This document shows positions 4,694 to 51,957 of a DNA stretch of 64,000 nucleotides, piece by piece. Numbering within the stretch: the stretch's first letter is position 1; each line of letters begins with the position of its first letter. The position numbers and the translations under genes are program-made. The notes below the pieces were generated by a model. It ran no database searches, was not told the origin of the DNA, and worked only from the letters and a program-made list of their open reading frames with translations. The DNA comes from Escherichia phage mobillu. The DNA lies in the sequence record MN850622.1; one strand, written 5' to 3'.

Positions 4694-5275
4694 ATGGCTA
4701 GTTTAATTTTTACCTATGCCGCTATGAACGCTGGTAAGTCTGCTTCATTACTTACTGCCGCACATAACTATAAAGAACGCGGCATGGGTGTATTAGTTCT
4801 TAAACCGGCTATTGATACTCGCGATTCAAAAGGTGAAATAGTCTCTCGTATTGGTATTCGTCAGGACGCCAATATAATTACAAAAGACATGGATATCTTT
4901 GAATTCTATAAATGGGCTGCAGCACAAAAGGATATTCACTGCGTATTTGTTGACGAAGCTCAGTTCTTAACTACTGAAAAGGTGTATCAACTTAGTCGTA
5001 TTGTTGACGTATACAATGTGCCGGTAATGGCATATGGACTACGAACAGATTTTAAAGGTAATCTATTTGAAGGTTCTCAAGCATTAATGGCTATTGCCGA
5101 TAAGCTTGTTGAACTTAAAGGTGTCTGTCATTGTGGTAAAAAGGCCACAATGGTAGCTAGAGTCACGGAAGACGGACTTCCAATTACAGATGGCAGTCAA
5201 ATTGAAATTGGTGATACCGATAGATATGTGTCATTATGCCGGAAGCATTGGAACGATTTGACAGGGTTGTTATAA
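4694..5275 (+). CDS. tk: thymidine kinase
   Basis: 193 aa; P-loop NAGKSASLL, VDEAQF, zinc ligand pattern CHCGKKAT...C; matches T4 Tk length and motifs. Confidence 0.9.
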   Translation: MASLIFTYAAMNAGKSASLLTAAHNYKERGMGVLVLKPAIDTRDSKGEIVSRIGIRQDANIITKDMDIFEFYKWAAAQKDIHCVFVDEAQFLTTEKVYQLSRIVDVYNVPVMAYGLRTDFKGNLFEGSQALMAIADKLVELKGVCHCGKKATMVARVTEDGLPITDGSQIEIGDTDRYVSLCRKHWNDLTGLL

Positions 5276-5302: not shown

Positions 5303-5515
5303 ATGCAGCAATTAAACGAAAGACAACTTCGTAATCTTACTGTAACCCAATTGGATGAAATCCGAAGAGAATTAGGACATTCTATTTCTCATTTAAACGA
5401 GGATATCCGTCAAACTGGTTCTAAAGCTGATTATACACGCAAGCGCAAGCTGGAAAAATACCTCGCAGATGTTAAGGCCGTCCAAAGGCGAAAAATAAAT
5501 ACTGGCCAAAATTAA
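5303..5515 (+). CDS. hypothetical protein (rI.-1 position)
   Basis: ORF 70 aa with RBS AAGAGG. Confidence 0.5.
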
Positions 5516-5527
5516 CAGGAGGCCTAT

Positions 5528-5830
5528 ATGGCCTTAAGAGCGATAGCTGTCATAGCGATGCTGGGGTTTTTTGCAGCAACAACTCCTATCGTTGGTACTG
5601 CAAATATCGACCCATATTTTGATAACTTTATGGAATCAGGGATTAAAAACGTATATACTTTGTTTGAAATTCAAAATGTCGAGAATTCTGAAAAATTCTA
5701 TAAGTATATGGCAAAGCATTACAAAAATAGCCCCTGTGATGATGCATTTGAATGTCATGAACAAGGCATAAAAACTGCCAGACAATTTGCCGAGTTCATG
5801 AAAATAAAATTAGAGCCTACATCTATCTAA
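5528..5830 (+). CDS. rI: lysis-inhibition regulator RI (antiholin)
   Basis: 100 aa with N-terminal signal anchor; NIDPYFDNFMESGIKNVYTLFE...YKNSPC..FEC..G...FMKIKLE matches T4 RI as I recall it; synteny tk-rI. Confidence 0.7.
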   Translation: MALRAIAVIAMLGFFAATTPIVGTANIDPYFDNFMESGIKNVYTLFEIQNVENSEKFYKYMAKHYKNSPCDDAFECHEQGIKTARQFAEFMKIKLEPTSI

Positions 5831-7684: not shown

Positions 7685-8670
7685 TGAAAACGATTGTTAA
7701 GGCTTACTTTGGTAGCCACCTTTATGGAACGTCTACTCCTGAATCTGACGTCGATTTTAAAGAAATTTATGTCCCTCATGCTCGTGATATCTTGACCGGT
7801 AACGTTAAAGAACACATGAGCAAGAACACGAATAACACATCTTCTAAGAACACAAAAGACGACGTGGACCATGAGTTGTATAGTCTCAAATATTTCTTTA
7901 AACTAGCTGCGGATGGTGAAACCGTCGCATTAGATATGCTTCACACTCCACAAAGTCTAGTAGTTAAATCTGATTTGCCTGATGTATGGAAGTATATTCA
8001 AGATAACAGGTCTCGTTTCTATACCACTAACATGAAATCTTATTTAGGGTATGTCCGTAAGCAAGCTTCTAAATACGGTGTCAAGGGTTCTCGACTGGCT
8101 GTTCTTCGTCAAGCCCTTAAACGTTCTAATGAATGGGGACAATACTTTGATAATGGTGCAGTAATTCGTTTATCACATATGAAGAATGTTCTGCCTGTAG
8201 GTGAATTTGCTTCATGGGTTGAAACCGAAAACGAGAAAACAGGTAAGCAAACATTCTATAATCTGTTAGACCGTAAATTCCAAGACACATTAACCAATAA
8301 AGAGTTCAATGCCATCCTGGTTAAACTGGAAGAGAACTATGGTGAACGTGCTCGTAAGGCAGAAGCCAACGAAGGTATTGACTGGAAAGCATTGAGTCAT
8401 GCATGTCGTGGTGGACTTCAACTATTGGAAATTTACAAAACCGGCGACCTGGTTTACCCACTTCAGGATGCTCCATTTATTCTCGATGTTAAGCTTGGTA
8501 AACATACGTTTAAAACTGTACAAGAATTCCTAGAAGATATCGTTGACCAAGTTGAACATGCGTCAGAACAAGCCGCTAAGAACGGTATGCAACAAAAAGT
8601 AGATATGAGTTTCTGGGATGATTTCCTTGAGCAAGTCTATCTCGAAAATCATAATTCTTACTATAAATAA
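7681..8670 (+). CDS. Pol-beta-superfamily nucleotidyltransferase-like protein
   Basis: N-terminal GS-x9-SDVD motif (YFGSHLYGTSTPESDVDF). Confidence 0.55.
   Translation: MMKTIVKAYFGSHLYGTSTPESDVDFKEIYVPHARDILTGNVKEHMSKNTNNTSSKNTKDDVDHELYSLKYFFKLAADGETVALDMLHTPQSLVVKSDLPDVWKYIQDNRSRFYTTNMKSYLGYVRKQASKYGVKGSRLAVLRQALKRSNEWGQYFDNGAVIRLSHMKNVLPVGEFASWVETENEKTGKQTFYNLLDRKFQDTLTNKEFNAILVKLEENYGERARKAEANEGIDWKALSHACRGGLQLLEIYKTGDLVYPLQDAPFILDVKLGKHTFKTVQEFLEDIVDQVEHASEQAAKNGMQQKVDMSFWDDFLEQVYLENHNSYYK
8663..8670 (+). promoter_or_regulatory. candidate T4 late promoter (TATAAATA)
   Basis: Exact TATAAATA about 32 nt upstream of ATG 8702. Confidence 0.35.
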
Positions 8671-8701
8671 ATAGATAAATAACCATTAACTTGAGGTAAA
8701 T

Positions 8702-8968
8702 ATGAAAAAATTAGTAATTGGTTTATTCGCTGTAATGATGGCATTCTCTGTTGGTGCTACCACGGGCGCAGGAGCTGATGGTAACCAGTCTTCTGGGCCT
8801 TCTAACGGTTCGGTAAATGCATCACATTCTCAGGGTATTGAGAATATCAAATCAAGCTATATTAATAGCACGGCCGGACAAGCAACTGAAGCATGGTCAA
8901 AGGGTCGAGTAGTTACTCGCTCTGTATTCTGTGATATGCCTAATTATGTTGCTAAGTGTGATAAGTAA
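8702..8968 (+). CDS. hypothetical secreted protein
   Basis: Signal peptide MKKLVIGLFAVMMAFSVGA; Gly/Ser-rich. Confidence 0.55.
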   Translation: MKKLVIGLFAVMMAFSVGATTGAGADGNQSSGPSNGSVNASHSQGIENIKSSYINSTAGQATEAWSKGRVVTRSVFCDMPNYVAKCDK

Positions 8969-39962: not shown

Positions 39963-40060
39963 GAGCCATTTAAAGTTTTAAATGCTGTATAACCCTTAGT
40001 ATATAATCATCTTATCTTTTAAACATGAGTAAAATATAATGATGCCTATGGAAAAATACA

Positions 40061-41233
40061 ATGTCTGATTTAAAATCTCGTTTGATTAAAGCTTCTACTT
40101 CTAAAATGACTGCAGACTTGACTAAGTCTAAGCTGTTTAATAATCGCGATGAAGTCCCTACTCGTATTCCAATGTTGAATATTGCACTAGGTGGTGCACT
40201 GAATGCCGGGTTGCAATCAGGCTTGACTATTTTTGCTGCTCCTTCTAAACACTTTAAAACGTTGTTTGGACTGACCATGGTTGCAGCATATATGAAGAAA
40301 TATAAAGATGCAATCTGTTTGTTTTATGACTCAGAATTCGGTGCTTCGGAATCTTATTTTCGTTCAATGGGTGTTGATTTAGACCGTGTAGTTCATACTC
40401 CGATTCAATCGGTCGAACAACTTAAGGTTGATATGACTAATCAGCTTGACGCGATTGAACGCGGTGATAAAGTTATTATCTTTATTGACTCGATTGGTAA
40501 TACTGCATCTAAGAAAGAAACCGAAGATGCATTGAACGAGAAAGTTGTAGGTGATATGTCTCGTGCTAAGGCACTTAAATCTCTGTTCCGCATTGTGACC
40601 CCGTATCTGACTATTAAAGATATTCCGTGTGTTGCAATTAACCATACAGCAATGGAAATCGGCGGATTGTATCCTAAAGAGATTATGGGCGGTGGTACAG
40701 GTATTCTTTATTCTGCCAACACGGTATTTTTTATCTCTAAACGTCAGGTTAAAGAAGGTACAGAATTGACCGGTTATGACTTCACGTTGAAAGCAGAAAA
40801 ATCTCGCACAGTTAAAGAGAAATCTACTTTCCCGATCACGGTTAATTTTGATGGCGGTATTGACCCATTCAGTGGCTTGTTAGAAATGGCAACTGAAATT
40901 GGTTTTGTAGTTAAGCCTAAAGCTGGTTGGTATGCTCGTGAATTCCTTGACGAAGAAACAGGTGAAATGATTCGTGAAGAAAAATCATGGCGTGCTAAAG
41001 CTACTGATTGTGTAGAATTCTGGGGACCTTTGTTTAAACACAAACCTTTCCGAGATGCAATTGAAACTAAATATAAACTAGGTGCTATCTCTTCTATTAA
41101 AGAAGTTGATGACGCTGTTAACGACCTTATTAATTGCAAAGCAACAACTAAAGTTCCGGTTAAAACTTCTGATGCTCCATCTGCAGCAGATATAGAAAAC
41201 GACCTTGACGAAATGGAAGATTTCGATGAATAA
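40061..41233 (+). CDS. uvsX: recombinase UvsX (RecA-like)
   Basis: 390 aa; Walker A-like AAPSKHFKT, RecA core; matches T4 UvsX size and position. Confidence 0.9.
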   Translation: MSDLKSRLIKASTSKMTADLTKSKLFNNRDEVPTRIPMLNIALGGALNAGLQSGLTIFAAPSKHFKTLFGLTMVAAYMKKYKDAICLFYDSEFGASESYFRSMGVDLDRVVHTPIQSVEQLKVDMTNQLDAIERGDKVIIFIDSIGNTASKKETEDALNEKVVGDMSRAKALKSLFRIVTPYLTIKDIPCVAINHTAMEIGGLYPKEIMGGGTGILYSANTVFFISKRQVKEGTELTGYDFTLKAEKSRTVKEKSTFPITVNFDGGIDPFSGLLEMATEIGFVVKPKAGWYAREFLDEETGEMIREEKSWRAKATDCVEFWGPLFKHKPFRDAIETKYKLGAISSIKEVDDAVNDLINCKATTKVPVKTSDAPSAADIENDLDEMEDFDE

Positions 41234-41567
41234 TCTCGATGATTTAAATCTAGAAATCGTTGATGAATCCCCTTCTTCGGAAGGGGAAGACATTCGCAAA
41301 GAACGAGTGTTTAATGAATCTCTTAAAATTGTCCGTTCAGCAATGGAAAATGTCATTCAAGAGATTCTGATTACACTTGAAGACGGTTCCCATCATATAG
41401 TCTATATTACAAAACTAGACTGGGTTGATGGTAAAATCGTAATGGACTTTGCAGTTCTTGACCAGGACAGAAAAGCAGAACTTGCACCGCACGTTGAAAA
41501 ATGTGTTACAATGCAAGTACAACAAGCTTTTAATGAACGAACCAAGAAAAAATTTAAATTCTTTTAA
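41226..41567 (+). CDS. 40: gp40-like protein (head vertex assembly chaperone position)
   Basis: ORF 41205..41567, start placed at ATG 41226 overlapping uvsX stop; synteny uvsX-40-41. Confidence 0.55.
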   Translation: MNNLDDLNLEIVDESPSSEGEDIRKERVFNESLKIVRSAMENVIQEILITLEDGSHHIVYITKLDWVDGKIVMDFAVLDQDRKAELAPHVEKCVTMQVQQAFNERTKKKFKFF

Positions 41568-41576
41568 GGAGTTATC

Positions 41577-43019
41577 GTGGTAGAAATTATTTTGTCTCAT
41601 CTAGTATATGACCAGGCTTATTTTTCTAAGGTCTGGCCTTATATGGATTCTGAGTATTTTGAGCGTGGACCGGCAAAAAATGTCTTTAAAATTATAAAGA
41701 GCCACGTTAACGAATATAATGCAATGCCATCTATCAATGCGTTAAAGGTGGCTTTAGATAACAGTTCTTTAACTGAAGCCGAATATAAAGGAACTTCAGA
41801 CCTAATTGAAAAATTGGCTGATACTCCTGAAGACCATGAATGGTTGGTTAAAGAAACTGAGAAATATGTCCAGCAAAAAGCGATGTATAATGCTACATCC
41901 AAAATCATTGAGATTCAGTCTAATGCTGAACTACCTCCAGAACAACGTAACAAGAAAATGCCTGACGTAGGAGCTATTCCTGATATTATGCGTCAAGCAC
42001 TTTCAATTTCGTTTGATAGTTATGTTGGTCATGACTGGATGGAAGACTACGAAGCACGCTGGCTTTCTTATCTAAATAAAGCACGTAAGGTCCCGTTCAA
42101 ATTAAACATTTTGAATAAAATCACTAAAGGTGGTGCTGAAACAGGTACACTAAACGTTTTAATGGCCGGTGTTAACGTTGGTAAATCTTTAGGCCTTTGT
42201 TCACTTGCTGCAGATTATCTTCAAACAGGTCATAACGTTCTTTATATTTCTATGGAAATGGCTGAAGAAGTTTGTGCTAAGCGTATAGATGCAAACATGC
42301 TTGACGTATCACTCGATGATATCGATGATGGTAACGTATCTTATGCTGAATATAAAGCCAAGATGGAAAAATGGCGTTCAAAAACAACATTAGGACGTTT
42401 AGTAGTTAAACAGTATCCCACTGGTGGAGCTAATGCTAATACATTTCGTGCATTGCTTAATGAGTTAAAACTTAAGAAGAACTTTGTGCCATCTGTAATC
42501 ATGGTTGATTACTTAGGTATTTGTGGGTCTTGTCGTATCAGAGTTTACACTGAAAATAGCTACACATTAGTTAAAGCTATCGCAGAAGAACTTCGTGCAT
42601 TAGCAGTAGAATCTGAAACAGTTCTATGGACTGCAGCTCAAGTAGGACGGGCAGCATGGGATGCTTCGGATATGAACATGAGCGATATTGCAGAATCAGC
42701 AGGTTTACCAGCAACGGCAGATTTCATGTTGGCCGTAATTGAAACCGAAGAACTTGCACAAGCTGAACAACAACTTATCAAACAAATCAAATCACGATAC
42801 GGCGATAAGAATAAGTGGAATAAATTCCTGATGGGTGTACGTAAAGGCAACCAGAAATGGATTGAGATTGAGCAAGAAGGCATGAACACACCTAACACAG
42901 TAAATGAAAACGCAGGTGCTCAGATGCGTCAGGCAGAGGTGAATCGTACGGAACGCGTAGGTAAAGCCAAAGCAACACGTGCTGACCTAGATAGCTTAGC
43001 CAATGAGTTAAAATTTTAA
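41577..43019 (+). CDS. 41: replicative DNA helicase gp41 (DnaB-like)
   Basis: 480 aa; GTG start 41577 with RBS TAAGGAG; Walker A GVNVGKS; N-terminus MVEIILSHL.YDQAYFSKVWPYMDSEYFE matches T4 gp41 as I recall it. Confidence 0.9.
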   Translation: MVEIILSHLVYDQAYFSKVWPYMDSEYFERGPAKNVFKIIKSHVNEYNAMPSINALKVALDNSSLTEAEYKGTSDLIEKLADTPEDHEWLVKETEKYVQQKAMYNATSKIIEIQSNAELPPEQRNKKMPDVGAIPDIMRQALSISFDSYVGHDWMEDYEARWLSYLNKARKVPFKLNILNKITKGGAETGTLNVLMAGVNVGKSLGLCSLAADYLQTGHNVLYISMEMAEEVCAKRIDANMLDVSLDDIDDGNVSYAEYKAKMEKWRSKTTLGRLVVKQYPTGGANANTFRALLNELKLKKNFVPSVIMVDYLGICGSCRIRVYTENSYTLVKAIAEELRALAVESETVLWTAAQVGRAAWDASDMNMSDIAESAGLPATADFMLAVIETEELAQAEQQLIKQIKSRYGDKNKWNKFLMGVRKGNQKWIEIEQEGMNTPNTVNENAGAQMRQAEVNRTERVGKAKATRADLDSLANELKF

Positions 43020-43025
43020 TAAAAA

Positions 43026-43044
43026 GGAGACTTCGGTCTCCTTT
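43026..43044 (+). terminator. rho-independent terminator
   Basis: GGAGAC-TTCG-GTCTCC followed by TTT. Confidence 0.6.
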
Positions 43045-43048
43045 CGGG

Positions 43049-43078
43049 GTTTACATCTTCCTCTAGGCATGATATGAT
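43049..43078 (+). promoter_or_regulatory. candidate early promoter
   Basis: GTTTAC 43049-43054 and TATGAT 18 nt downstream. Confidence 0.4.
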
Positions 43079-43107
43079 GTACTTACACCAACCAAGAGGA
43101 AAACATT

Positions 43108-43482
43108 ATGAATATGTCTCAAGCAATTTTTACTGTAATCACCGAAAACACAACTGTTGAAGTAGTTTCTCCACTGGCAACCTACGTTATTCTTGCTCCT
43201 AAAACTATTGTATCTCGTATGGAAAACATGGGCAAACGTATCGTACAAATAGTTGGAGCCGGAAATCAAAAACTTGATTATCTACGAACCATCAAAGCTT
43301 ATGAACATTTCCAACTCGAAAAAGGTTCTCCTATCCAGGTAGAACTCGTAAATGGTGATATCGTTCGAGCAATGTTCCATCATTTCTATGCATTGAATGA
43401 CCCATCTAAAGCGGTTCGTTTAATTGCATACGACGCAAACCAAAACGAAATCAACGCAGATGTATCTAAATTACGTTTTTAA
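43108..43482 (+). CDS. hypothetical protein
   Basis: ORF 124 aa with RBS AAGAGGAAA. Confidence 0.55.
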   Translation: MNMSQAIFTVITENTTVEVVSPLATYVILAPKTIVSRMENMGKRIVQIVGAGNQKLDYLRTIKAYEHFQLEKGSPIQVELVNGDIVRAMFHHFYALNDPSKAVRLIAYDANQNEINADVSKLRF

Positions 43483-43531
43483 GTTTACTTCTCCAGTAGT
43501 TGTGTTATTATAGATCTATCAACTACTGGAG
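43483..43531 (+). promoter_or_regulatory. T4-type early promoter (PeSL-like)
   Basis: GTTTAC 43483-43488, TG-TTATTATAGA; 12-bp inverted repeat CTCCAGTAGTTG/CAACTACTGGAG. Confidence 0.55.
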
Positions 43532-43537
43532 AACAAA

Positions 43538-43855
43538 ATGAAAACCATCGATTGTAAAGCAGAATTTAAGATTTTTTATCACGGTTCAAGTAGTTCAGCT
43601 AACATCGAAAACATGCTTTGTCCTCCTGAAGAAACAGGAGTTCTGTCTGAAACTGGACGTAAGAAAAACTTGGATCGTGTATTCTTTACTGAAGATATCG
43701 GTTTAGCAAAGATTTATGCAGGACGAGCAGCACGCTCTTATGGAGGTGAACCACGTCTCTATCGAGTAATTTCTCCGGTAGATGTAGTTCAAATGAATGA
43801 TACTAAAGGCGCTACAGTTTATCACGCTGAATGGGCATTTTGCGAGGAAATATGA
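43538..43855 (+). CDS. hypothetical protein
   Basis: ORF 105 aa immediately upstream of and coupled to dmd. Confidence 0.55.
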   Translation: MKTIDCKAEFKIFYHGSSSSANIENMLCPPEETGVLSETGRKKNLDRVFFTEDIGLAKIYAGRAARSYGGEPRLYRVISPVDVVQMNDTKGATVYHAEWAFCEEI

Positions 43856-44040
43856 GCAAATTAACTAAAGTTACTTTTATCGGTTGGTTTAAAAGCGGTG
43901 AGATGTTCACTAAAGATATCATGTTATCAGGTGATCGCGAAGAAATCGAGTGGGTTACGGTACAACTTGCTGAAGTGAACAAAGCATTAGTTAAAGCATT
44001 TGTTAATGACGAGAAAGTTTTCGAAGCAGATTTTCGATAA
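43852..44040 (+). CDS. dmd: Dmd (discriminator of mRNA degradation; antitoxin against RnlA/LsoA)
   Basis: 62 aa from ATG 43852; ..KVTFIGWFK..EMFTK...AEVNKALVKAF..D.KV.E.D matches T4 Dmd as I recall it. Confidence 0.7.
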   Translation: MSKLTKVTFIGWFKSGEMFTKDIMLSGDREEIEWVTVQLAEVNKALVKAFVNDEKVFEADFR

Positions 44041-44052
44041 TTTTAAATAGCT

Positions 44053-44086
44053 GTTTACAAGCCCCACATACTGTGTTACTATCTTT
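44053..44086 (+). promoter_or_regulatory. candidate early promoter
   Basis: GTTTAC 44053-44058, TG-TTACTAT. Confidence 0.4.
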
Positions 44087-44110
44087 CTATCAACTACAGA
44101 GGAAATTGAA

Positions 44111-44479
44111 ATGAAAAAATTAATCGCTTTAGCAATGGTATTTGGATTAACCGGATGTGGTGCCCATGGCTTTATCCCTAATAATGTTGGCCAACTGATT
44201 TATAATCCGAATGTTAAACAGTACGACCAACCTAAAGTTGAAGTGGAAGACCCGGTTACTGTAGGTAATCGAATGATTCAAGCTGATGCCCATGCTCAAC
44301 GTTATCGTGACTCTGATACTGTAGCATTGTCAAAAGAACAGCGCGTTAAAGAACATTGCTTACAGGCTACTGAAATCGCATTCATTCGCTATGTTGAAAC
44401 AACCGGTAAAGAGCCTACCCAGAAACAAATCGCGAATAACTACGTCCAGTGTATTGAACGTTTAAACAAATTTAATTAA
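44111..44479 (+). CDS. hypothetical lipoprotein
   Basis: Signal peptide with lipobox LTGC. Confidence 0.55.
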   Translation: MKKLIALAMVFGLTGCGAHGFIPNNVGQLIYNPNVKQYDQPKVEVEDPVTVGNRMIQADAHAQRYRDSDTVALSKEQRVKEHCLQATEIAFIRYVETTGKEPTQKQIANNYVQCIERLNKFN

Positions 44480-44482
44480 TTG

Positions 44483-44516
44483 GTTTACACCAAAGTTAAA
44501 ATAAGATACTATAAAC
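44483..44516 (+). promoter_or_regulatory. candidate early promoter
   Basis: GTTTAC 44483-44488, TACTATAAAC downstream. Confidence 0.35.
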
Positions 44517-44540
44517 ATAACAAATCAAGAGGAAATTAAC

Positions 44541-44789
44541 ATGGAATTATTCGTAGCTAGTTCAGTAGCAGTTTTAATCGCAGGTATTGGTTCAATCATC
44601 ATTTACATGTTGCCTTGGGTAATCGCACTTATTCGTGGCACAAAAAGCACAACAGCAATCTTCTTTGTATCTTTACTCTTTAACTGGACGATGGTTGGTT
44701 GGATTGGAACTTTAATTTGGTCTATCATTGCCGAAAAGAAATCGGCTCAGCAGCCTCAACAAGTAATTATTATTCGCGAAAAAGAATAA
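44541..44789 (+). CDS. hypothetical membrane protein
   Basis: Two hydrophobic helices; 82 aa. Confidence 0.55.
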   Translation: MELFVASSVAVLIAGIGSIIIYMLPWVIALIRGTKSTTAIFFVSLLFNWTMVGWIGTLIWSIIAEKKSAQQPQQVIIIREKE

Positions 44790-44793
44790 ACTT

Positions 44794-44830
44794 GTTTACA
44801 TTATAGATGGACTATAGTATAGTAGTCCTA
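44794..44830 (+). promoter_or_regulatory. T4-type early promoter (PeSL-like)
   Basis: GTTTAC 44794-44799; inverted repeat GGACTA/TAGTCC. Confidence 0.5.
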
Positions 44831-44852
44831 TCAAATCAACTAAGGAGTTAAA

Positions 44853-45146
44853 ATGAAAAAGTTATCATTGGCAGCAATCTTACTTGCAGTATCATGTGCA
44901 CCGGCTCCAGTTACGGCAGGTTATGATAAAGACCTCTGTGAGTGGTCAATGACTGCAAATCAAGAAGATGTTGAACAACAAATCTTCTCTGATATCATGA
45001 ACATCACTAAACGAGACCGTCCTAATATGGTTAATAAAGTTGTTGAACAACTTAAGTCTGGCGGTATCATGCAGTACAACTATGTTTTGTATTGTGACCC
45101 TAATTTCGATAACAAAGATATCGTAACCGAAATCACAGGTGAATAA
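44853..45146 (+). CDS. sp: Spackle-like periplasmic protein (tentative)
   Basis: 97 aa with signal peptide; AGYDKDLCEWSMTA...YNYVLYCD resembles T4 Sp as I recall it. Confidence 0.5.
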   Translation: MKKLSLAAILLAVSCAPAPVTAGYDKDLCEWSMTANQEDVEQQIFSDIMNITKRDRPNMVNKVVEQLKSGGIMQYNYVLYCDPNFDNKDIVTEITGE

Positions 45147-45798
45147 TATGATTTATTATATGCACAAAAATGCGCCATTTAAATATGGTAAATTTCCTAA
45201 TGCACAATGTTATAATATAACGCCGAATGAAAATAATAACGGATACCATCTCGGTGTAATTTTTGTAATTGTTAAAGATAACGAAATAGTTGCCTGGGCA
45301 GATTTTAAAGGTACAACATATGATGTTAATCCTGTGCCTTTCACATATTACAATATAATGGATTTGGCATATGATTATAATTGGTTTAATCATGACACGT
45401 TGGCTCATATTGAAGGTGTAGGATTTGACATCTCTTATTCTAGCTATTCATTATGTCCTATGAGCCGAGCTCACGGTAAAGATGTATCATATCTTTCAAT
45501 TCGGAAACGTGTAAACTTCAAACGTAGTACAGAGTATGTTGGTGGACTCTTTGTTAAAGATAATAAAATAACCCGTATTAGTTATCCTCTAAGTGTAGGC
45601 CAAAAAGATGTTGATGTTGATTTGGACTTAACTGAAAATAACATTAATCGTATTGCTTCTGTATATTTTGATATCGATGAAAAAATTGTAGTGTGTGGAT
45701 ACGAATTACCACCTGAAGAAAAGGCCGAAGCAATTGAAGTCGAATTAGAAATTTCTGTTGATGACCAAATATTTAATGCATTTATGAATCGAGGTTAA
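45139..45798 (+). CDS. hypothetical protein
   Basis: ORF 219 aa. Confidence 0.55.
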   Translation: MNNMIYYMHKNAPFKYGKFPNAQCYNITPNENNNGYHLGVIFVIVKDNEIVAWADFKGTTYDVNPVPFTYYNIMDLAYDYNWFNHDTLAHIEGVGFDISYSSYSLCPMSRAHGKDVSYLSIRKRVNFKRSTEYVGGLFVKDNKITRISYPLSVGQKDVDVDLDLTENNINRIASVYFDIDEKIVVCGYELPPEEKAEAIEVELEISVDDQIFNAFMNRG

Positions 45799-45799
45799 A

Positions 45800-45997
45800 A
45801 TGACTACTGCAATTTGCACTGGTTCTAAAATTAGTGTTTTTACAAGTTTTGAAGATTATGAAGTTGTTTCAAAACACCAATGCCATATTAGCGTAAAAGC
45901 TAATGATGGTGTAATTTGGAATATTCCACAGTATGAAGGCACTACATATGAAGTCACAGATATAAATGGTGACAAAGCAATCTTTGTAATTGATTAA
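45800..45997 (+). CDS. hypothetical protein
   Basis: ORF 65 aa. Confidence 0.5.
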   Translation: MTTAICTGSKISVFTSFEDYEVVSKHQCHISVKANDGVIWNIPQYEGTTYEVTDINGDKAIFVID

Positions 45998-46016
45998 ATA
46001 TACTCAGGAGGTACCT

Positions 46017-46484
46017 ATGGGTATTATTAACACTGCAATAGATTCTGTTTATGCATATAAGTTTATTCGACTAATGCAAAAACCTTTTACTGAATGGAAA
46101 GCATACGAAGCCAAAATCATCGATGAACGTGGAAGTGTTCTTAAACGCCCTTCCACTCCTGAAGAGAAAGCGGCTTATACACCTTTTCATGCTTCAGTTC
46201 GTTCAATGAAGCGAATGATGAGCACTGTTCCAGGTCTTAATGGAATGGCCTCAATGATGTCTGCCTGGAGTGCTGTAGCTTCACGCTATAACATTACGGA
46301 AGAACAACAGAAAGAAATATTTAAAGAACTCCCTTTATTTGAGGATATGGTTGCTGGTGATTCAGGCGACAGTCCTCAAGCTATTGCATCAGGAACAACT
46401 ACAGGTGCAGTCGTAAATAAAGGTCCAGAACAAATTCCTTCCAAGAAAAGAAAGCGAATTAAAGTAAATATTAATAAGTTGTGA
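46017..46484 (+). CDS. hypothetical protein
   Basis: ORF 45990..46484, start placed at ATG 46017 after AGGAGG. Confidence 0.5.
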   Translation: MGIINTAIDSVYAYKFIRLMQKPFTEWKAYEAKIIDERGSVLKRPSTPEEKAAYTPFHASVRSMKRMMSTVPGLNGMASMMSAWSAVASRYNITEEQQKEIFKELPLFEDMVAGDSGDSPQAIASGTTTGAVVNKGPEQIPSKKRKRIKVNINKL

Positions 46485-46523
46485 TATGATGGCCTTATTA
46501 ATTTAAGGCCTCTGGAGAATACT

Positions 46524-47546
46524 ATGGCTGAATGGATAGATAATGAATTTGCTTATCGTGCGTTTTCTCACCTACCTCGTTTTAGACAAATCAATAATTC
46601 AAGCACATTTAAATTAACATTTCGATGTCCAGTTTGTGGCGACTCTCAGACAGATGCAATGAAAGCTCGCGGTTGGTATTATGGCGGTACTCCTGGTAAT
46701 GTACATTGCTATAACTGTCAATACCACAATACAATTTCCGGATACTTAAAGGAGTATGATGAAGAGCTTTATCGCGAATATCTAATGGAAGTTCGTAAAG
46801 AAAAAGCTAGAATGGAACCAAAGATTGAAAAGGTTCCTGAAGCTAAGCCAGAGCCAGAGAAAAAGACTATAAATTCTTTGCCGTCTTGTTCTCGTCTGGA
46901 CAAGTTGCCTGAAGAGCATCCTATTGTGAAATATGTTAAGTCTCGGTGTATTCCTAAAGAATCATGGAACAGATTATGGTTCACATTAGAATGGCCCAAA
47001 TTGGTCAACAAGATTCAACCTGGTACGTATAAGAAAGAGATTCCCGAACCACGTTTAGTGATTCCTATTTTTAATAAAGATGGTAAGGCCGAGTCATTCC
47101 AAGGACGTGCACTTCGTAAAGATGCTCCTCAGAAATATATCACTATTAAAGCGTTTGAGTCTGCAACAAAAATTTATGGTGTTGAACGTGTTAAGGAAGG
47201 GGACGTCTGGGTAATGGAAGGCCCTATTGATAGTTTATTCATACCCAATGCAATCGCTATTACAGGCGGCTCAATAGATTTAGATGTGGTACCATTTAAA
47301 GAACGTCGGGTATGGGTAATGGATAATGAACCTAGGCATCCGGATACTATAGCTCGCATGAAGCGATTAGTTGATGCAGGCGAACGTGTCATGTTCTGGG
47401 ATCGAGCTCCATGGAGATCAAAGGATGTGAATGATATGGTAATGAAAGAAAATGCAACACCACAAGAAATTTTAGAATATATGAAACAGAATATTTCAAG
47501 TGGGTTGCATGCTAAAATGAGATTATCTCGTTATTCGAAGATTTAA
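46524..47546 (+). CDS. 61: DNA primase gp61
   Basis: 340 aa; N-terminal zinc ribbon CPVCGDS...CYNC, TOPRIM segment VMEGPIDS...D.E. Confidence 0.85.
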   Translation: MAEWIDNEFAYRAFSHLPRFRQINNSSTFKLTFRCPVCGDSQTDAMKARGWYYGGTPGNVHCYNCQYHNTISGYLKEYDEELYREYLMEVRKEKARMEPKIEKVPEAKPEPEKKTINSLPSCSRLDKLPEEHPIVKYVKSRCIPKESWNRLWFTLEWPKLVNKIQPGTYKKEIPEPRLVIPIFNKDGKAESFQGRALRKDAPQKYITIKAFESATKIYGVERVKEGDVWVMEGPIDSLFIPNAIAITGGSIDLDVVPFKERRVWVMDNEPRHPDTIARMKRLVDAGERVMFWDRAPWRSKDVNDMVMKENATPQEILEYMKQNISSGLHAKMRLSRYSKI

Positions 47547-47740
47547 ACAAGCCCTATAATAGCAAAGGCCAAATCAACTACAGTATCCAATGGAACAGAA
47601 GGAACCATAACACCATGGGCAACTAACAATGGTGCAATCCCGAAGTTCCATGAAATAATGCCACCTACAACTATTGCAGCGATAGCAGTTTTCTTTTTAT
47701 TGCCTTTAATAGCGTTGATTAACGATGGAAGTTTAAACAT
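47543..47740 (-). CDS. hypothetical small membrane protein (minus strand)
   Basis: 65 aa; strong RBS TAAGGAG 5 nt upstream of ATG on minus strand; lies in a gap with no + strand ORF; two hydrophobic helices. Confidence 0.55.
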   Translation of the reverse strand: MFKLPSLINAIKGNKKKTAIAAIVVGGIISWNFGIAPLLVAHGVMVPSVPLDTVVDLAFAIIGLV

Positions 47741-47828
47741 GATATCTCCTTAGTTACCTATTATTTATTACGCTTTATAAAATTAATGTTAGAATTAACT
47801 CTCTTATACTGAATTGAAAGGAAAAATA

Positions 47829-48350
47829 ATGGCACACTTTAACGAATGTTCACAACTTATTTCTGGTGTTGATAAAGCAGAAGAAGCTTATTTTAATGCT
47901 CTGATTCACGAAGATAAAGACCCACTGCAGGTAATGCTTGATATGCAGAAATCTTTACAGGTTCGTCTGGCAAATGACAAGCCTGAACATAACAAACATC
48001 CTGATGAATTGGCCACTGCTGGCGATGTTGTTGATTGGCTGCGTAATCAGAAAGATTATATTGATGATGAATTTCGTGAACTGCTGACTTCACTTGGTGG
48101 TATGTCCAACGGTGAAAAAGCTGCCAGCTCTGTGTGGAAGCCATGGAAAGCACAACATGCTGAATATCGTAATCGTCGTATTGATGAACTGTCTCCTGAA
48201 GACCAGCTCGAAATTAAATTCGAAATGATTGATATTCTGCACTTCGTTCTGAACATGTTCCAAGGTCTGGGTCTTTCTGCCGAAGAAATCTTTAAACTGT
48301 ATTATCTGAAGAATGCTGAAAACTTTGCTCGTCAAGACCGAGGTTATTAA
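47829..48350 (+). CDS. 56: dCTP pyrophosphatase gp56 (MazG-like)
   Basis: 173 aa from ATG 47829; MAHFNEC...DPLQVMLDMQ...ETAGDVV.W...IDDEFRELLTSLG...SPEDQLEIKFE..DI.HFVLNMF.GLG...EEIFKLYYLKN.ENFARQDRGY matches T4 gp56 as I recall it. Confidence 0.85.
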   Translation: MAHFNECSQLISGVDKAEEAYFNALIHEDKDPLQVMLDMQKSLQVRLANDKPEHNKHPDELATAGDVVDWLRNQKDYIDDEFRELLTSLGGMSNGEKAASSVWKPWKAQHAEYRNRRIDELSPEDQLEIKFEMIDILHFVLNMFQGLGLSAEEIFKLYYLKNAENFARQDRGY

Positions 48351-48523
48351 TGGCTCGTTTAAATAAACGTCAGCTTAAGAAAGCTCATAAGAAACGTATT
48401 GACCAACTATTTAAAAATGATAACAGTGAGCTTATTTGTAAGCTCCTGTCTAATCAGCTTCAGCATGTTAGTCAATTATCAGACCATCTACATATGGTTG
48501 ATTGGGTTGCAAATGAAACTTGA
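48350..48523 (+). CDS. hypothetical basic small protein (57 aa)
   Basis: TAATG coupling with gene 56 stop; below ORF-track cutoff. Confidence 0.4.
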   Translation: MARLNKRQLKKAHKKRIDQLFKNDNSELICKLLSNQLQHVSQLSDHLHMVDWVANET

Positions 48524-51196: not shown

Positions 51197-51805
51197 ATGT
51201 TTATGCCGTATAACGAGTGTGAAATTGAAGAAATTGTTCGTCGTGCTCAAAACCCCGAATATCAAGATGTATTGCAGTACGAAATTGATAGTCAATTCAG
51301 CGACATTGAACAAAGTGTACTGTGGCAGTGTATGGAAAACAAGCCAGACTGTATTCAACAGGAGTTAAGTTCAATCGTTCGTAGAAATTGGACGTCTTCT
51401 GTTCCTGAGACAATGTATCGTGGAATCTCTAAGAAAACTATGGCCGCACTCGATGATAAAGGCATTGGTAGTATTATTAAATTTGACAGAGTAATGAGCT
51501 TCAGCCCAGTGTTCGGTGTAGCACGTAACTTTGCTTCGTATAATTTTTACGGAACATTTAATATGTTCTGCATCAAAGATGCACCATTTGCTTTCAACTT
51601 CCGTGAACATATGCTTAACATGATTCTGGCTGCGCCATCTTGTGAGTTCAATGGAGCTTTCCCTGAAGCGACAAGACGGTCTAATGCTAGACTTATATCC
51701 GACGAATGTGAATTTATGCTCCCTATAGGGACTACACTGCGTGTAGATTCTATTATTCAAGATGGACGTTATACAATCTGGAATCTGTCTATTGTCAGTT
51801 ACTGA
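51197..51805 (+). CDS. modA: ADP-ribosyltransferase (ModA-like)
   Basis: 202 aa; MYRG, MSFSP, DECEFML triad elements. Confidence 0.65.
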   Translation: MFMPYNECEIEEIVRRAQNPEYQDVLQYEIDSQFSDIEQSVLWQCMENKPDCIQQELSSIVRRNWTSSVPETMYRGISKKTMAALDDKGIGSIIKFDRVMSFSPVFGVARNFASYNFYGTFNMFCIKDAPFAFNFREHMLNMILAAPSCEFNGAFPEATRRSNARLISDECEFMLPIGTTLRVDSIIQDGRYTIWNLSIVSY

Positions 51806-51957
51806 CTGAATTGGAATAACCGGATGGAACTCAGAACCATTATAACACATAAAAAATTAAAGCATTTTACGAAAAAAGAGTGTACACTACCTGAGGGCAT
51901 GATATTATAAGCTTATCAGCTAAATGACTTAACGTCCGTAAGACAGAGGAAAATATT

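What the first reader, a model, noticed from the sequence alone, without database searches (positions are those of the whole stretch)
47543..47740. Convincing minus-strand small membrane-protein gene in an otherwise unidirectional region
The gap between primase (ends 47546) and gene 56 (starts 47829) lacks any + strand ORF. On the minus strand, a 65-aa ORF has a strong RBS (TAAGGAG, 5-nt spacer) and ATG at 47740, encoding two hydrophobic helices (AIAAIVVGGIISWNFGIAPLLVAHGVMV...). Its stop overlaps the primase stop convergently. Candidates: membrane-targeting toxin, superinfection-exclusion factor or holin-like peptide.
Basis: seen in the sequence. Interest (0 to 1): 0.55.

Follow-up and report, generated by a model that had tools for sequence, protein, structure and literature searches.

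The report
Conserved late T-even membrane-protein gene (dam.1)
The minus-strand ORF is a real, conserved small inner-membrane protein gene of T4-type phages, already annotated as a hypothetical protein (RB69ORF029w, dam.1 in T4T), probably expressed late, dispensable in the lab and of unknown function.

Summary
Window 47543..47740 (-) is a 65-aa ORF with TAAGGAG 5 nt before the ATG. Its stop overlaps the primase (gene 61) stop, and it is the only opposite-strand gene in about 14 kb.

The window is a Mosigvirus (RB69-like T-even phage). The ORF is identical to annotated "hypothetical protein" genes in 26 phage records. It equals RB69ORF029w and phrog_2024. Its T4 ortholog is called dam.1 in the T4T record but is missing from the T4 RefSeq.

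It sits in the same convergent slot after gene 61 in six named Tevenvirinae genera. It shows purifying selection (dN/dS 0.12-0.38). In 12 of 13 loci an NATAAATA box, a T4 late-promoter variant, lies 14-21 nt before the start codon.

AlphaFold and hydropathy give one real transmembrane helix, probably N-terminus inside, plus a short amphipathic C-terminal helix. That is not two membrane spans.

Its positional ortholog in phage Bas37 is non-essential by transposon sequencing. No Pfam, NCBIfam, PADLOC, PDB or Rfam match gives a function.

Best reading: a non-essential late accessory inner-membrane protein. The holin, toxin and exclusion ideas remain unsupported. This is a known gene of unknown function, of modest interest.

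The parts
47543..47740 (-). CDS of 65 aa plus stop. Ortholog of RB69ORF029w / T4T dam.1, family phrog_2024. Predicted features: N-terminal cationic segment (net +5), TM helix about 19-41, Pro-rich loop 42-50, short amphipathic helix 51-62.
   Evidence: ORF. (100% identical annotated CDS in 26 records). (phrog_2024, E 2.6e-27, full length). (dN/dS 0.12-0.38). (hydropathy, AF2 pLDDT 85.7).
47746..47752 (-). Shine-Dalgarno sequence TAAGGAG, 5 nt before the ATG.
   Evidence: An AAGGAG/GGAGGA-type SD is present at the same place in all 13 loci aligned.
47762..47769 (-). AATAAATA, a T4-type late-promoter box (gp55-dependent) with A at -13. It ends 21 nt before the ATG.
   Evidence: NATAAATA lies 14-21 nt before the ATG in 12 of 13 loci from different genera. 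ATAAATA is depleted in the window (10 vs 29±5 expected). A(-13) variants make up 9 of the 50 listed T4 late promoters (PMC2988020). Promoter activity itself is inferred, not measured.
47756..47756 (-). Predicted late transcription start, 6 nt after the box (box = -13..-6), giving a 16-nt leader.
   Evidence: Inference from the published box geometry (PMC1524935). Not measured.
47543..47546 (.). Convergent overlap of the ORF stop and the primase stop.
   Evidence: The same 4-nt tail-to-tail overlap occurs in T4, RB51, CkP1, KLB31 and metagenome locus L017.
46524..47546 (+). Gene 61 (DNA primase), the convergent neighbour. It would be read antisense by any late transcript that passes the ORF.
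   Evidence: No minus-strand terminator-like site lies between 47600 and 40000.

Best explanation
The ORF is a real protein-coding gene of T-even phages. It is RB69ORF029w in RB69, dam.1 in the T4T record, and family phrog_2024.

Shown here:
- It is conserved, with an intact frame, under purifying selection.
- It sits at a fixed position convergent with primase gene 61 across Tevenvirinae.
- It carries a conserved Shine-Dalgarno sequence and a conserved NATAAATA box.
- Its Bas37 positional ortholog tolerates transposon insertions.

Inferred:
- It is transcribed in the late phase by gp55-RNA polymerase from a sub-consensus late promoter. The -13 base is never T in the loci read, so the promoter is probably weak.
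- It is translated from a leader of about 16 nt.
- It inserts into the inner membrane as a single-pass protein, with the cationic N-terminus in the cytoplasm and a tail of about 24 residues, ending in an amphipathic helix, on the periplasmic side.

The most conserved residues are W31, N32, P37, G43, P47 and D/E52. They lie in the outer half of the TM helix and just after it. This points to action through helix-helix contact with a partner membrane protein or with itself.

My best guess for its role is a dispensable late modulator at the envelope, for example of lysis timing or lysis inhibition through holin T, RI or the spanins. I put that specific role at only about 0.25.
For: Reality of the gene:
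- the ORF and its signals.
- 692 records hold a homolog, 685 of them near full length.
- dN/dS 0.12-0.38 with third-position bias.
- 17 invariant columns across three clades.

Synteny:
- same slot in Mosig-, Tequatro-, Gapriver-, Karam-, Jiaoda- and Kanagawavirus.
- remote homologs (E 2e-5 to 1e-4); the two whose contigs were read (P0075, P0076) lie in the same slot.

Late promoter:
- NATAAATA in 12 of 13 loci.
- the motif is depleted in the window.
- the other occurrences precede rI.-1, rI, soc and similar genes.
- published consensus, geometry and A(-13) variants.

Topology:
- hydropathy and charge.
- AF2 model.
- published TMHMM gives one TM at 21-41 and no signal peptide.

Dispensability:
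- bas37_0144 has 20 of 24 TA sites hit and is classed 'Non-essential'. In the one host comparison I read it showed no conditional effect (log2FC 0.33, q = 1), and it is not among the anti-defence genes the paper highlights.
Against: - I found no transcript, ribosome-profiling or peptide evidence for this gene in any phage.
- The promoter box deviates from the consensus. Neither the RB69 late-promoter list of Nolan et al. 2006 nor the T4 RefSeq features include it.
- The topology is prediction only. The C-terminal segment could be re-entrant.
- Occasional truncated copies exist (a48; P0034-P0036).
- The functional guess rests only on analogy: late, small, membrane-bound and non-essential, like the T4 lysis-inhibition genes.
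Confidence: 0.7

Rival explanations
1. It is a holin or pinholin-like lysis effector that permeabilises the inner membrane late in infection.
For: It is small, membrane-bound and has a late-type promoter. One homolog carries the source label 'Holin'.
Against: It has only one full TM, and the C-terminus is hydrophobic rather than a charged cytoplasmic tail. There is no Pfam or NCBIfam holin match. The Bas37 positional ortholog is non-essential. T-even phages already use holin T (my own knowledge). The fold search returned only family members.
Confidence: 0.08
2. It is a superinfection-exclusion, immunity or anti-defence factor that acts at the inner membrane.
For: It is a small inner-membrane protein, non-essential in K-12 and conserved across Tevenvirinae infecting Enterobacterales. 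That pattern is typical of accessory host-interaction genes.
Against: Known T4 exclusion genes (imm, sp) are early and unrelated in sequence (my own knowledge); this gene has a late-type promoter. There is no PADLOC match. In HIDEN-SEQ it showed no effect in the one host comparison I read, and it is not among the anti-defence genes the paper highlights.
Confidence: 0.15
3. The functional element is the late promoter and its antisense transcript, which runs into primase gene 61 and lowers primase expression late in infection. The peptide would be secondary.
For: The arrangement is convergent and overlaps the gene 61 stop in many genera. No minus-strand intrinsic terminator-like site lies within 7.5 kb downstream. 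[quoted passage not shown]
Against: Protein-level purifying selection, conserved residues and a conserved SD show that the peptide itself is selected. In Yersinia P8 and Gaprivervirus the ORF is separated from gene 61 by a homing-endonuclease gene or a 119-nt gap, yet it is kept intact. The antisense role could be an added function rather than a replacement.
Confidence: 0.07
4. It is a chance ORF on the antisense strand of an AT-rich intergenic region and is not expressed.
For: 1.7% of shuffles give an ORF of this size. There are no direct expression data. It is missing from the T4 and SP18 RefSeq annotations.
Against: The frame is kept at 45-55% amino-acid identity with saturated synonymous sites (dS above 1). 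Remote homologs at 22-34% identity lie in the same slot. The SD and promoter box are conserved.
Confidence: 0.02

Closest known systems
RB69ORF029w (NP_861719) / RB32ORF030w / T4T dam.1 (ADJ39749); family phrog_2024
   Same: Same gene. It has 100% amino-acid identity to annotated CDSs in 26 Mosigvirus records and 55% to the T4 copy. Position, orientation, length and overlap with the gene 61 stop all match.
   Different: Nothing differs structurally. The family has no assigned function. It is absent from the T4 RefSeq NC_000866, and so from the T4 gene lists used by CRISPRi-ART and HIDEN-SEQ.
T4 lysis-inhibition and lysis accessory membrane proteins (RI antiholin, holin T, spanin PseT.3)
   Same: These are also single genes under their own late-type promoters, scattered among early genes. 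They are small inner-membrane proteins and are dispensable in the lab. In this window rI also has an A(-13) AATAAATA box.
   Different: There is no sequence similarity: no paralog in the window and no family match. The periplasmic part is only about 24 residues, against the folded periplasmic domains of RI and T (my own knowledge). No functional link has been tested.
T4 Imm and Sp (superinfection exclusion)
   Same: Small envelope proteins of T-even phages encoded a few kb away.
   Different: Imm and Sp lie on the early strand and are early genes (my own knowledge). They are unrelated in sequence. This gene lies on the opposite strand behind a late-type box.
Class II/III holins and pinholins
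   Same: Size of about 60-70 aa, membrane helix, late expression.
   Different: It lacks a second full TM and a charged C-terminal cytoplasmic domain. The positional ortholog is non-essential. There is no profile match.

Membership tests
phrog_2024 (RB69ORF029w / dam.1 family) | Full-length profile match | tested here: met
   E 2.6e-27 over residues 1-65 of a 65-position profile. The T4 copy scores E 4.6e-31.
phrog_2024 (RB69ORF029w / dam.1 family) | Syntenic slot: opposite strand, immediately 3' of primase gene 61, between genes 61 and 56 | tested here: met
T4-type late gene | TATAAATA-type box (-13 to -6) shortly upstream of the SD and start codon | tested here: met
   AATAAATA at 47769..47762, and NATAAATA in 12 of 13 loci. 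The A(-13) class is documented. The box is a variant, not the perfect consensus.
T4-type late gene | gp55/gp33/gp45-dependent transcript appearing late in infection | not testable with these tools
   No expression data are held. The T4 dRNA-seq TSS table of bioRxiv 10.1101/2024.04.04.588121 is not among the held supplements.
Holin (class II/III or pinholin) | At least two TM helices (or one SAR plus one TM) with a charged cytoplasmic C-terminal tail | tested here: not met
   one TM helix (15-41 in the AF2 model) and a 12-residue C-terminal helix. The C-terminus is hydrophobic with net charge -2 to 0. The charge cluster is N-terminal.
Holin (class II/III or pinholin) | Required for lysis and plaque formation when it is the phage's holin | tested here: not met
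   the Bas37 positional ortholog bas37_0144 is classed Non-essential (20 of 24 TA sites disrupted). This is published Tn-seq data read here.
Holin (class II/III or pinholin) | Match to a holin sequence family | tested here: not met
   (no Pfam or NCBIfam hit). (only family members in BFVD).
Superinfection exclusion (Imm/Sp-like) | Sequence relation to Imm or Sp, and early expression | tested here: not met
   One search found no paralog in the window, which includes the imm/sp region. The promoter is late-type, not early or middle.
Known anti-phage defence or counter-defence proteins (PADLOC) | Profile match | tested here: not met
   no match for four family members.
Structured non-coding RNA | Rfam match or unusually stable fold | tested here: not met
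   no Rfam match at E up to 1; fold z-score of -1.5 for the 3' part of the ORF plus downstream sequence.

The most novel reading that the evidence does not exclude
dam.1/RB69ORF029w may be an overlooked late gene of T4 itself, with a specific role at the inner membrane. Because it is absent from the T4 reference annotation, it was skipped in the T4 gene lists of the two genome-wide screens I read (CRISPRi-ART, HIDEN-SEQ). One possible role is a modulator of holin T or RI, setting lysis timing or lysis inhibition through contacts made by its conserved in-membrane Asn. It might also be a dual-purpose unit in which the same weak late promoter drives antisense RNA into primase gene 61.
Probability: 0.2. 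Interest if true: 0.55.

Novelty: already known. Interest (0 to 1): 0.3.

Why it matters
The ORF is already annotated, so finding it is not new. The useful points are these:
- It is one of the few genes conserved across Tevenvirinae that still has no function and, as far as I found, no literature.
- It is missing from the T4 RefSeq record, so the T4 arms of recent genome-wide screens never tested it.
- It has a clear predicted expression class (late) and location (inner membrane), which makes it easy to test.

If it turned out to tune lysis timing, lysis inhibition or late membrane integrity, it would add a component to one of the best-studied phage lysis systems. If not, it remains an ordinary accessory gene.

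Tried and rejected
- Pfam, NCBIfam and PADLOC scans gave nothing usable. The only hit was AaeX at E 0.013 (15.8 bits against a cut-off of 82) for one remote member. I rejected it as a chance hydrophobic match.
- A PDB profile search returned only nicotinic-receptor M4 helices at E of 0.03 or worse. I rejected these as TM-composition matches.
- A BFVD fold search returned only family members.
- An Rfam search and an RNA fold of the 3' part of the ORF plus downstream sequence gave no RNA element and no convincing terminator.
- A sigma-70 promoter and terminator scan found no minus-strand promoter near the ORF and no downstream terminator.
- A paralog search of all six-frame ORFs in the window found none.
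- Literature searches for RB69ORF029w, RB32ORF030w, dam.1, T4 ribosome profiling and unannotated ORFs found no paper on the gene.
- Miller et al. 2003 (PMC150520) is not held.
- The T4 dRNA-seq TSS table is not in the held supplement.

Full report
**What the window is**
Window 46500-48400 is 99.7% identical to Escherichia phage FL31. It is 96-99% identical to about 150 other records of RB69-like T-even phages, genus Mosigvirus. The + strand of the window corresponds to the early/middle transcription direction of T4. The local gene order is sp - 61.2 - 61.1-like - 61 (primase) - [the ORF, opposite strand] - 56 (dCTPase) - soc.

**Check of the observation**
- The ORF is 47543..47740 (-), 65 aa, ATG start.
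- TAAGGAG lies at 47752..47746, 5 nt before the ATG.
- The ORF stop overlaps the primase stop tail to tail at 47543-47546.
- The gap between primase and gene 56 (ATG 47829) holds no + strand ORF beyond a 31-aa one.
- In FL31 this is the only opposite-strand CDS in about 14 kb.
- An ATG-ORF of this size occurs in 1.7% of dinucleotide shuffles of the region. Size alone is therefore only suggestive.

**Is it a real gene?**
- tblastn finds the protein in 692 phage records, 685 of them near full length. Twenty-six are 100% identical, and 533 fall below 60% identity, which is the band where T4 and its close relatives fall.
- It is annotated in almost all of these records as 'hypothetical protein' or 'putative transmembrane protein'. 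It is RB69ORF029w in RB69, RB32ORF030w in RB51 and dam.1 in the T4T record HM137666.
- It is not annotated in the T4 RefSeq NC_000866. There an intact 66-aa homolog (55% identity) lies in the 309-nt 'empty' gap between dam and gene 61. It is also missing from the SP18 RefSeq.
- Pairwise Nei-Gojobori estimates give dN/dS of 0.12-0.38, both within and between clades. Synonymous sites are saturated between clades, and differences by codon position run 3rd > 1st > 2nd, for example 41/30/12 for window vs T4.
- A profile search of 1.84 billion representative proteins found only nine proteins at E up to 1e-3. I read the contigs of two of the four remote ones, P0075 and P0076 (E 2e-5 and 7e-5; 22-23% identity to the window protein). 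Both are encoded in exactly the same slot: opposite strand, directly after the primase gene, between genes 61 and 56.
- With tblastn, the family covers Mosigvirus, Tequatrovirus, Gaprivervirus, Karamvirus, Jiaodavirus and Kanagawavirus, plus a Yersinia phage with no genus assigned in its record.
- It is absent where primase is followed within 8-15 nt by the next co-directional gene: Slopekvirus Matisse, Krischvirus GEC-3S and the Acinetobacter Lazarusvirus Konradin. In Aeromonas phage 31.2 the gap is only 95 nt. The gene therefore appears specific to the subfamily Tevenvirinae.
- The ORF survives local rearrangements. These include dam inserted between it and gene 56 in T4, a homing-endonuclease gene inserted between it and gene 61 in Yersinia P8, and extra genes in Karam- and Kanagawavirus.
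- A few copies are truncated (a48, P0034-P0036). This fits a non-essential gene.

**Expression signals**
- In 12 of 13 loci from different lineages, an NATAAATA box ends 14-21 nt before the ATG and is followed by an AAGGAG/GGAGGA Shine-Dalgarno. CkP1 has ATTAAATA instead. Otherwise the upstream regions of the different genera show little visible similarity.
- In the window the box is AATAAATA at 47769..47762.
- The T4 late promoter is TATAAATA at -13 to -6 (PMC1524935). Of 50 listed T4 late promoters, 32 are perfect and nine have A at -13 (PMC2988020). In RB69 and other relatives the -13 T is poorly conserved.
- ATAAATA is strongly depleted in this window: 10 occurrences against 29±5 in shuffles. 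The other occurrences mostly lie just before SD-ATG starts of expected late genes. These are rI.-1 (TATAAATA), rI (AATAAATA), soc (TATAAATA) and a signal-peptide ORF behind three overlapping boxes.
- I therefore infer gp55-dependent late transcription starting near 47756 (-), with a 16-nt leader.
- This is inference. Nolan et al. 2006 did not list a late promoter here among their 31 RB69 sites. The T4 RefSeq carries no regulatory feature here. I found no transcript data.
- One detail is unexplained. The -13 base is A, G or C, and never the consensus T, in every lineage read. This suggests selection for a weak promoter.
- No sigma-70-like promoter lies on the minus strand near the ORF. No intrinsic-terminator-like site lies on the minus strand for 7.5 kb downstream. 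The fold of the RNA covering the ORF's 3' end and downstream sequence is unremarkable (z = -1.5). A late transcript would therefore run antisense into gene 61 unless Rho stops it.

**The protein**
- The alignment of the three close clades has 17 invariant columns.
- Adding the remote members leaves M1, W31, P37 and G43 invariant. N32, P47 and G63 are nearly invariant, and position 52 is an acidic residue. The signature is W-N-[FY]-x3-P-x5-G-x3-P-x4-[DE].
- The N-terminal 18 residues are cationic (net +5 in the E. coli phage clades).
- Residues about 19-41 are a plausible TM helix, with a rough Hessa-type sum of -2.7 to +3.3 kcal/mol. I applied that scale from memory.
- The last 20-22 residues score +4 to +13 and carry D52 and D56 spaced i, i+4. 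This marks an amphipathic helix rather than a second span.
- AF2 with a 16-sequence alignment gives pLDDT 85.7, helices 4-11, 15-41 and 51-62, and a Pro-rich loop at 42-50.
- Published TMHMM and SignalP results for RB69ORF029w agree: one TM at 21-41 and no signal peptide.
- By the positive-inside rule, the likely topology is N-terminus in the cytoplasm and C-terminus on the periplasmic side.
- The conserved in-membrane Asn and the conserved residues just outside the membrane suggest specific helix-helix or interfacial contact with a partner or with itself. This is inference.

**Functional evidence**
- No match was found in Pfam, NCBIfam, PADLOC, PDB sequences, BFVD folds beyond family members, or Rfam.
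- No paralog lies in the window.
- No paper in the searchable library mentions RB69ORF029w, RB32ORF030w or dam.1.
- Both recent genome-wide T4 screens used gene lists that jump from dam to gene 61, so they never scored the T4 copy (CRISPRi-ART, PMC11879866; HIDEN-SEQ, bioRxiv 10.1101/2025.11.20.689424).
- HIDEN-SEQ also covered Bas37, a close T4 relative. Its bas37_0144 is a 201-nt opposite-strand CDS overlapping the primase gene by 4 nt, so it is the positional ortholog. It had 20 of 24 TA sites disrupted and was classed 'Non-essential'. In the one host comparison I read there was no effect (log2FC 0.33, q = 1), and it is not among the genes the paper highlights as anti-defence factors.
- I did not verify the Bas37 sequence itself. 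The assignment rests on position, length and overlap.

**Interpretation**
- The gene is real, conserved, very probably late and membrane-bound, and dispensable in laboratory growth.
- Among T4 genes, the class 'own late promoter, scattered among early genes, small inner-membrane protein, non-essential' is best represented by the lysis-timing and lysis-inhibition genes. This is my own knowledge of T4 biology. In this window rI shares the A(-13) box.
- I therefore rank an accessory role at the envelope late in infection first, with about 0.25 for a lysis-timing or lysis-inhibition role specifically.
- A true holin is unlikely, because the architecture is wrong and the positional ortholog is non-essential.
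- An exclusion or anti-defence role is possible but fits the late promoter poorly.
- An antisense-RNA role against gene 61 may add to the peptide's function but cannot replace it.
- A chance ORF is excluded by the comparative data.

**Novelty and score**
The ORF is already annotated in hundreds of records and forms a PHROG family of unknown function, so the finding is 'already known'. Three points go slightly beyond the records: the family-wide late-promoter box that never has T at -13, the restriction to Tevenvirinae at a fixed slot, and the gap in the T4 reference annotation that hid the gene from functional screens. Interest is 0.3.

Noticed in passing
window 47772-47795 (+): GCTT (47772-47775) and TAGAAT (47790-47795) have the exact -30/-12 spacing of a T4-type MotA-dependent middle promoter for gene 56 (ATG 47829). 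It sits back to back with the minus-strand late box, only 2 nt (47770-47771) away. I read this from the sequence; the geometry comes from PMC1524935.
   Followed up: no
window, whole 64 kb: ATAAATA is strongly depleted on both strands: 10 occurrences against 29±5 in shuffles. Most occurrences lie 20-40 nt before an SD-ATG. This fits avoidance of stray late promoters.
   Followed up: partly
window 5494-5501 (+) and 5528..5830 (+): The rI antiholin homolog (100 aa, MALRAIAVIAMLGFF...) is preceded by the same A(-13) variant box AATAAATA. rI.-1 (5303..5515) has a perfect TATAAATA at 5271.
   Followed up: partly
window 8662-8681 (+) and 8702..8968 (+): Three overlapping late-type boxes (TATAAATAAATAGATAAATA) precede an 88-aa ORF with a signal-peptide-like N-terminus (MKKLVIGLFAVMMAFSVGA...). 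Its identity was not examined.
   Followed up: no
L003 2239..2439 (T4 NC_000866 17738..17938 +); L024 (SP18 NC_014595): Intact homologs are unannotated in the T4 and SP18 RefSeq records, though the T4T record names the gene dam.1. As a result, the T4 gene lists of CRISPRi-ART and HIDEN-SEQ omit it.
   Followed up: yes
13 loci aligned (window, L003-L005, L008, L009, L015, L017, L018, L021-L024): The -13 base of the late-type box is never the consensus T. It is A in Mosig- and Jiaodavirus, G in Tequatrovirus and L018, and C in Gapriver-, Kanagawavirus and L017. CkP1 has ATTAAATA. This may reflect selection for a weak promoter.
   Followed up: partly
L006 2456..2608 (Escherichia phage a48); P0034-P0036: Truncated or short copies of the gene exist in a few phages and contigs, which fits dispensability or sequencing errors.
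   Followed up: no
L004 2715..3553 (Yersinia phage vB_YenM_P8): A homing-endonuclease gene is inserted between the ORF and primase. Several neighbouring small ORFs carry implausible product names, such as 'molybdenum ABC transporter' and 'DNA packaging ATPase' for a 33-aa ORF.
   Followed up: no
window 40000-47600 (-): No intrinsic-terminator-like site lies on the minus strand. Late transcription from 47756 would be antisense to genes 61, 61.1-like, 61.2, sp and beyond unless it is stopped by Rho.
   Followed up: partly
window 51197..51805 (+) and 51371..51850 (-): A 159-aa minus-strand ATG ORF almost fully overlaps a 202-aa plus-strand ORF (FL31 annotates the plus-strand one as ModA/ModB-like). 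The minus-strand ORF is probably spurious but was not examined.
   Followed up: no
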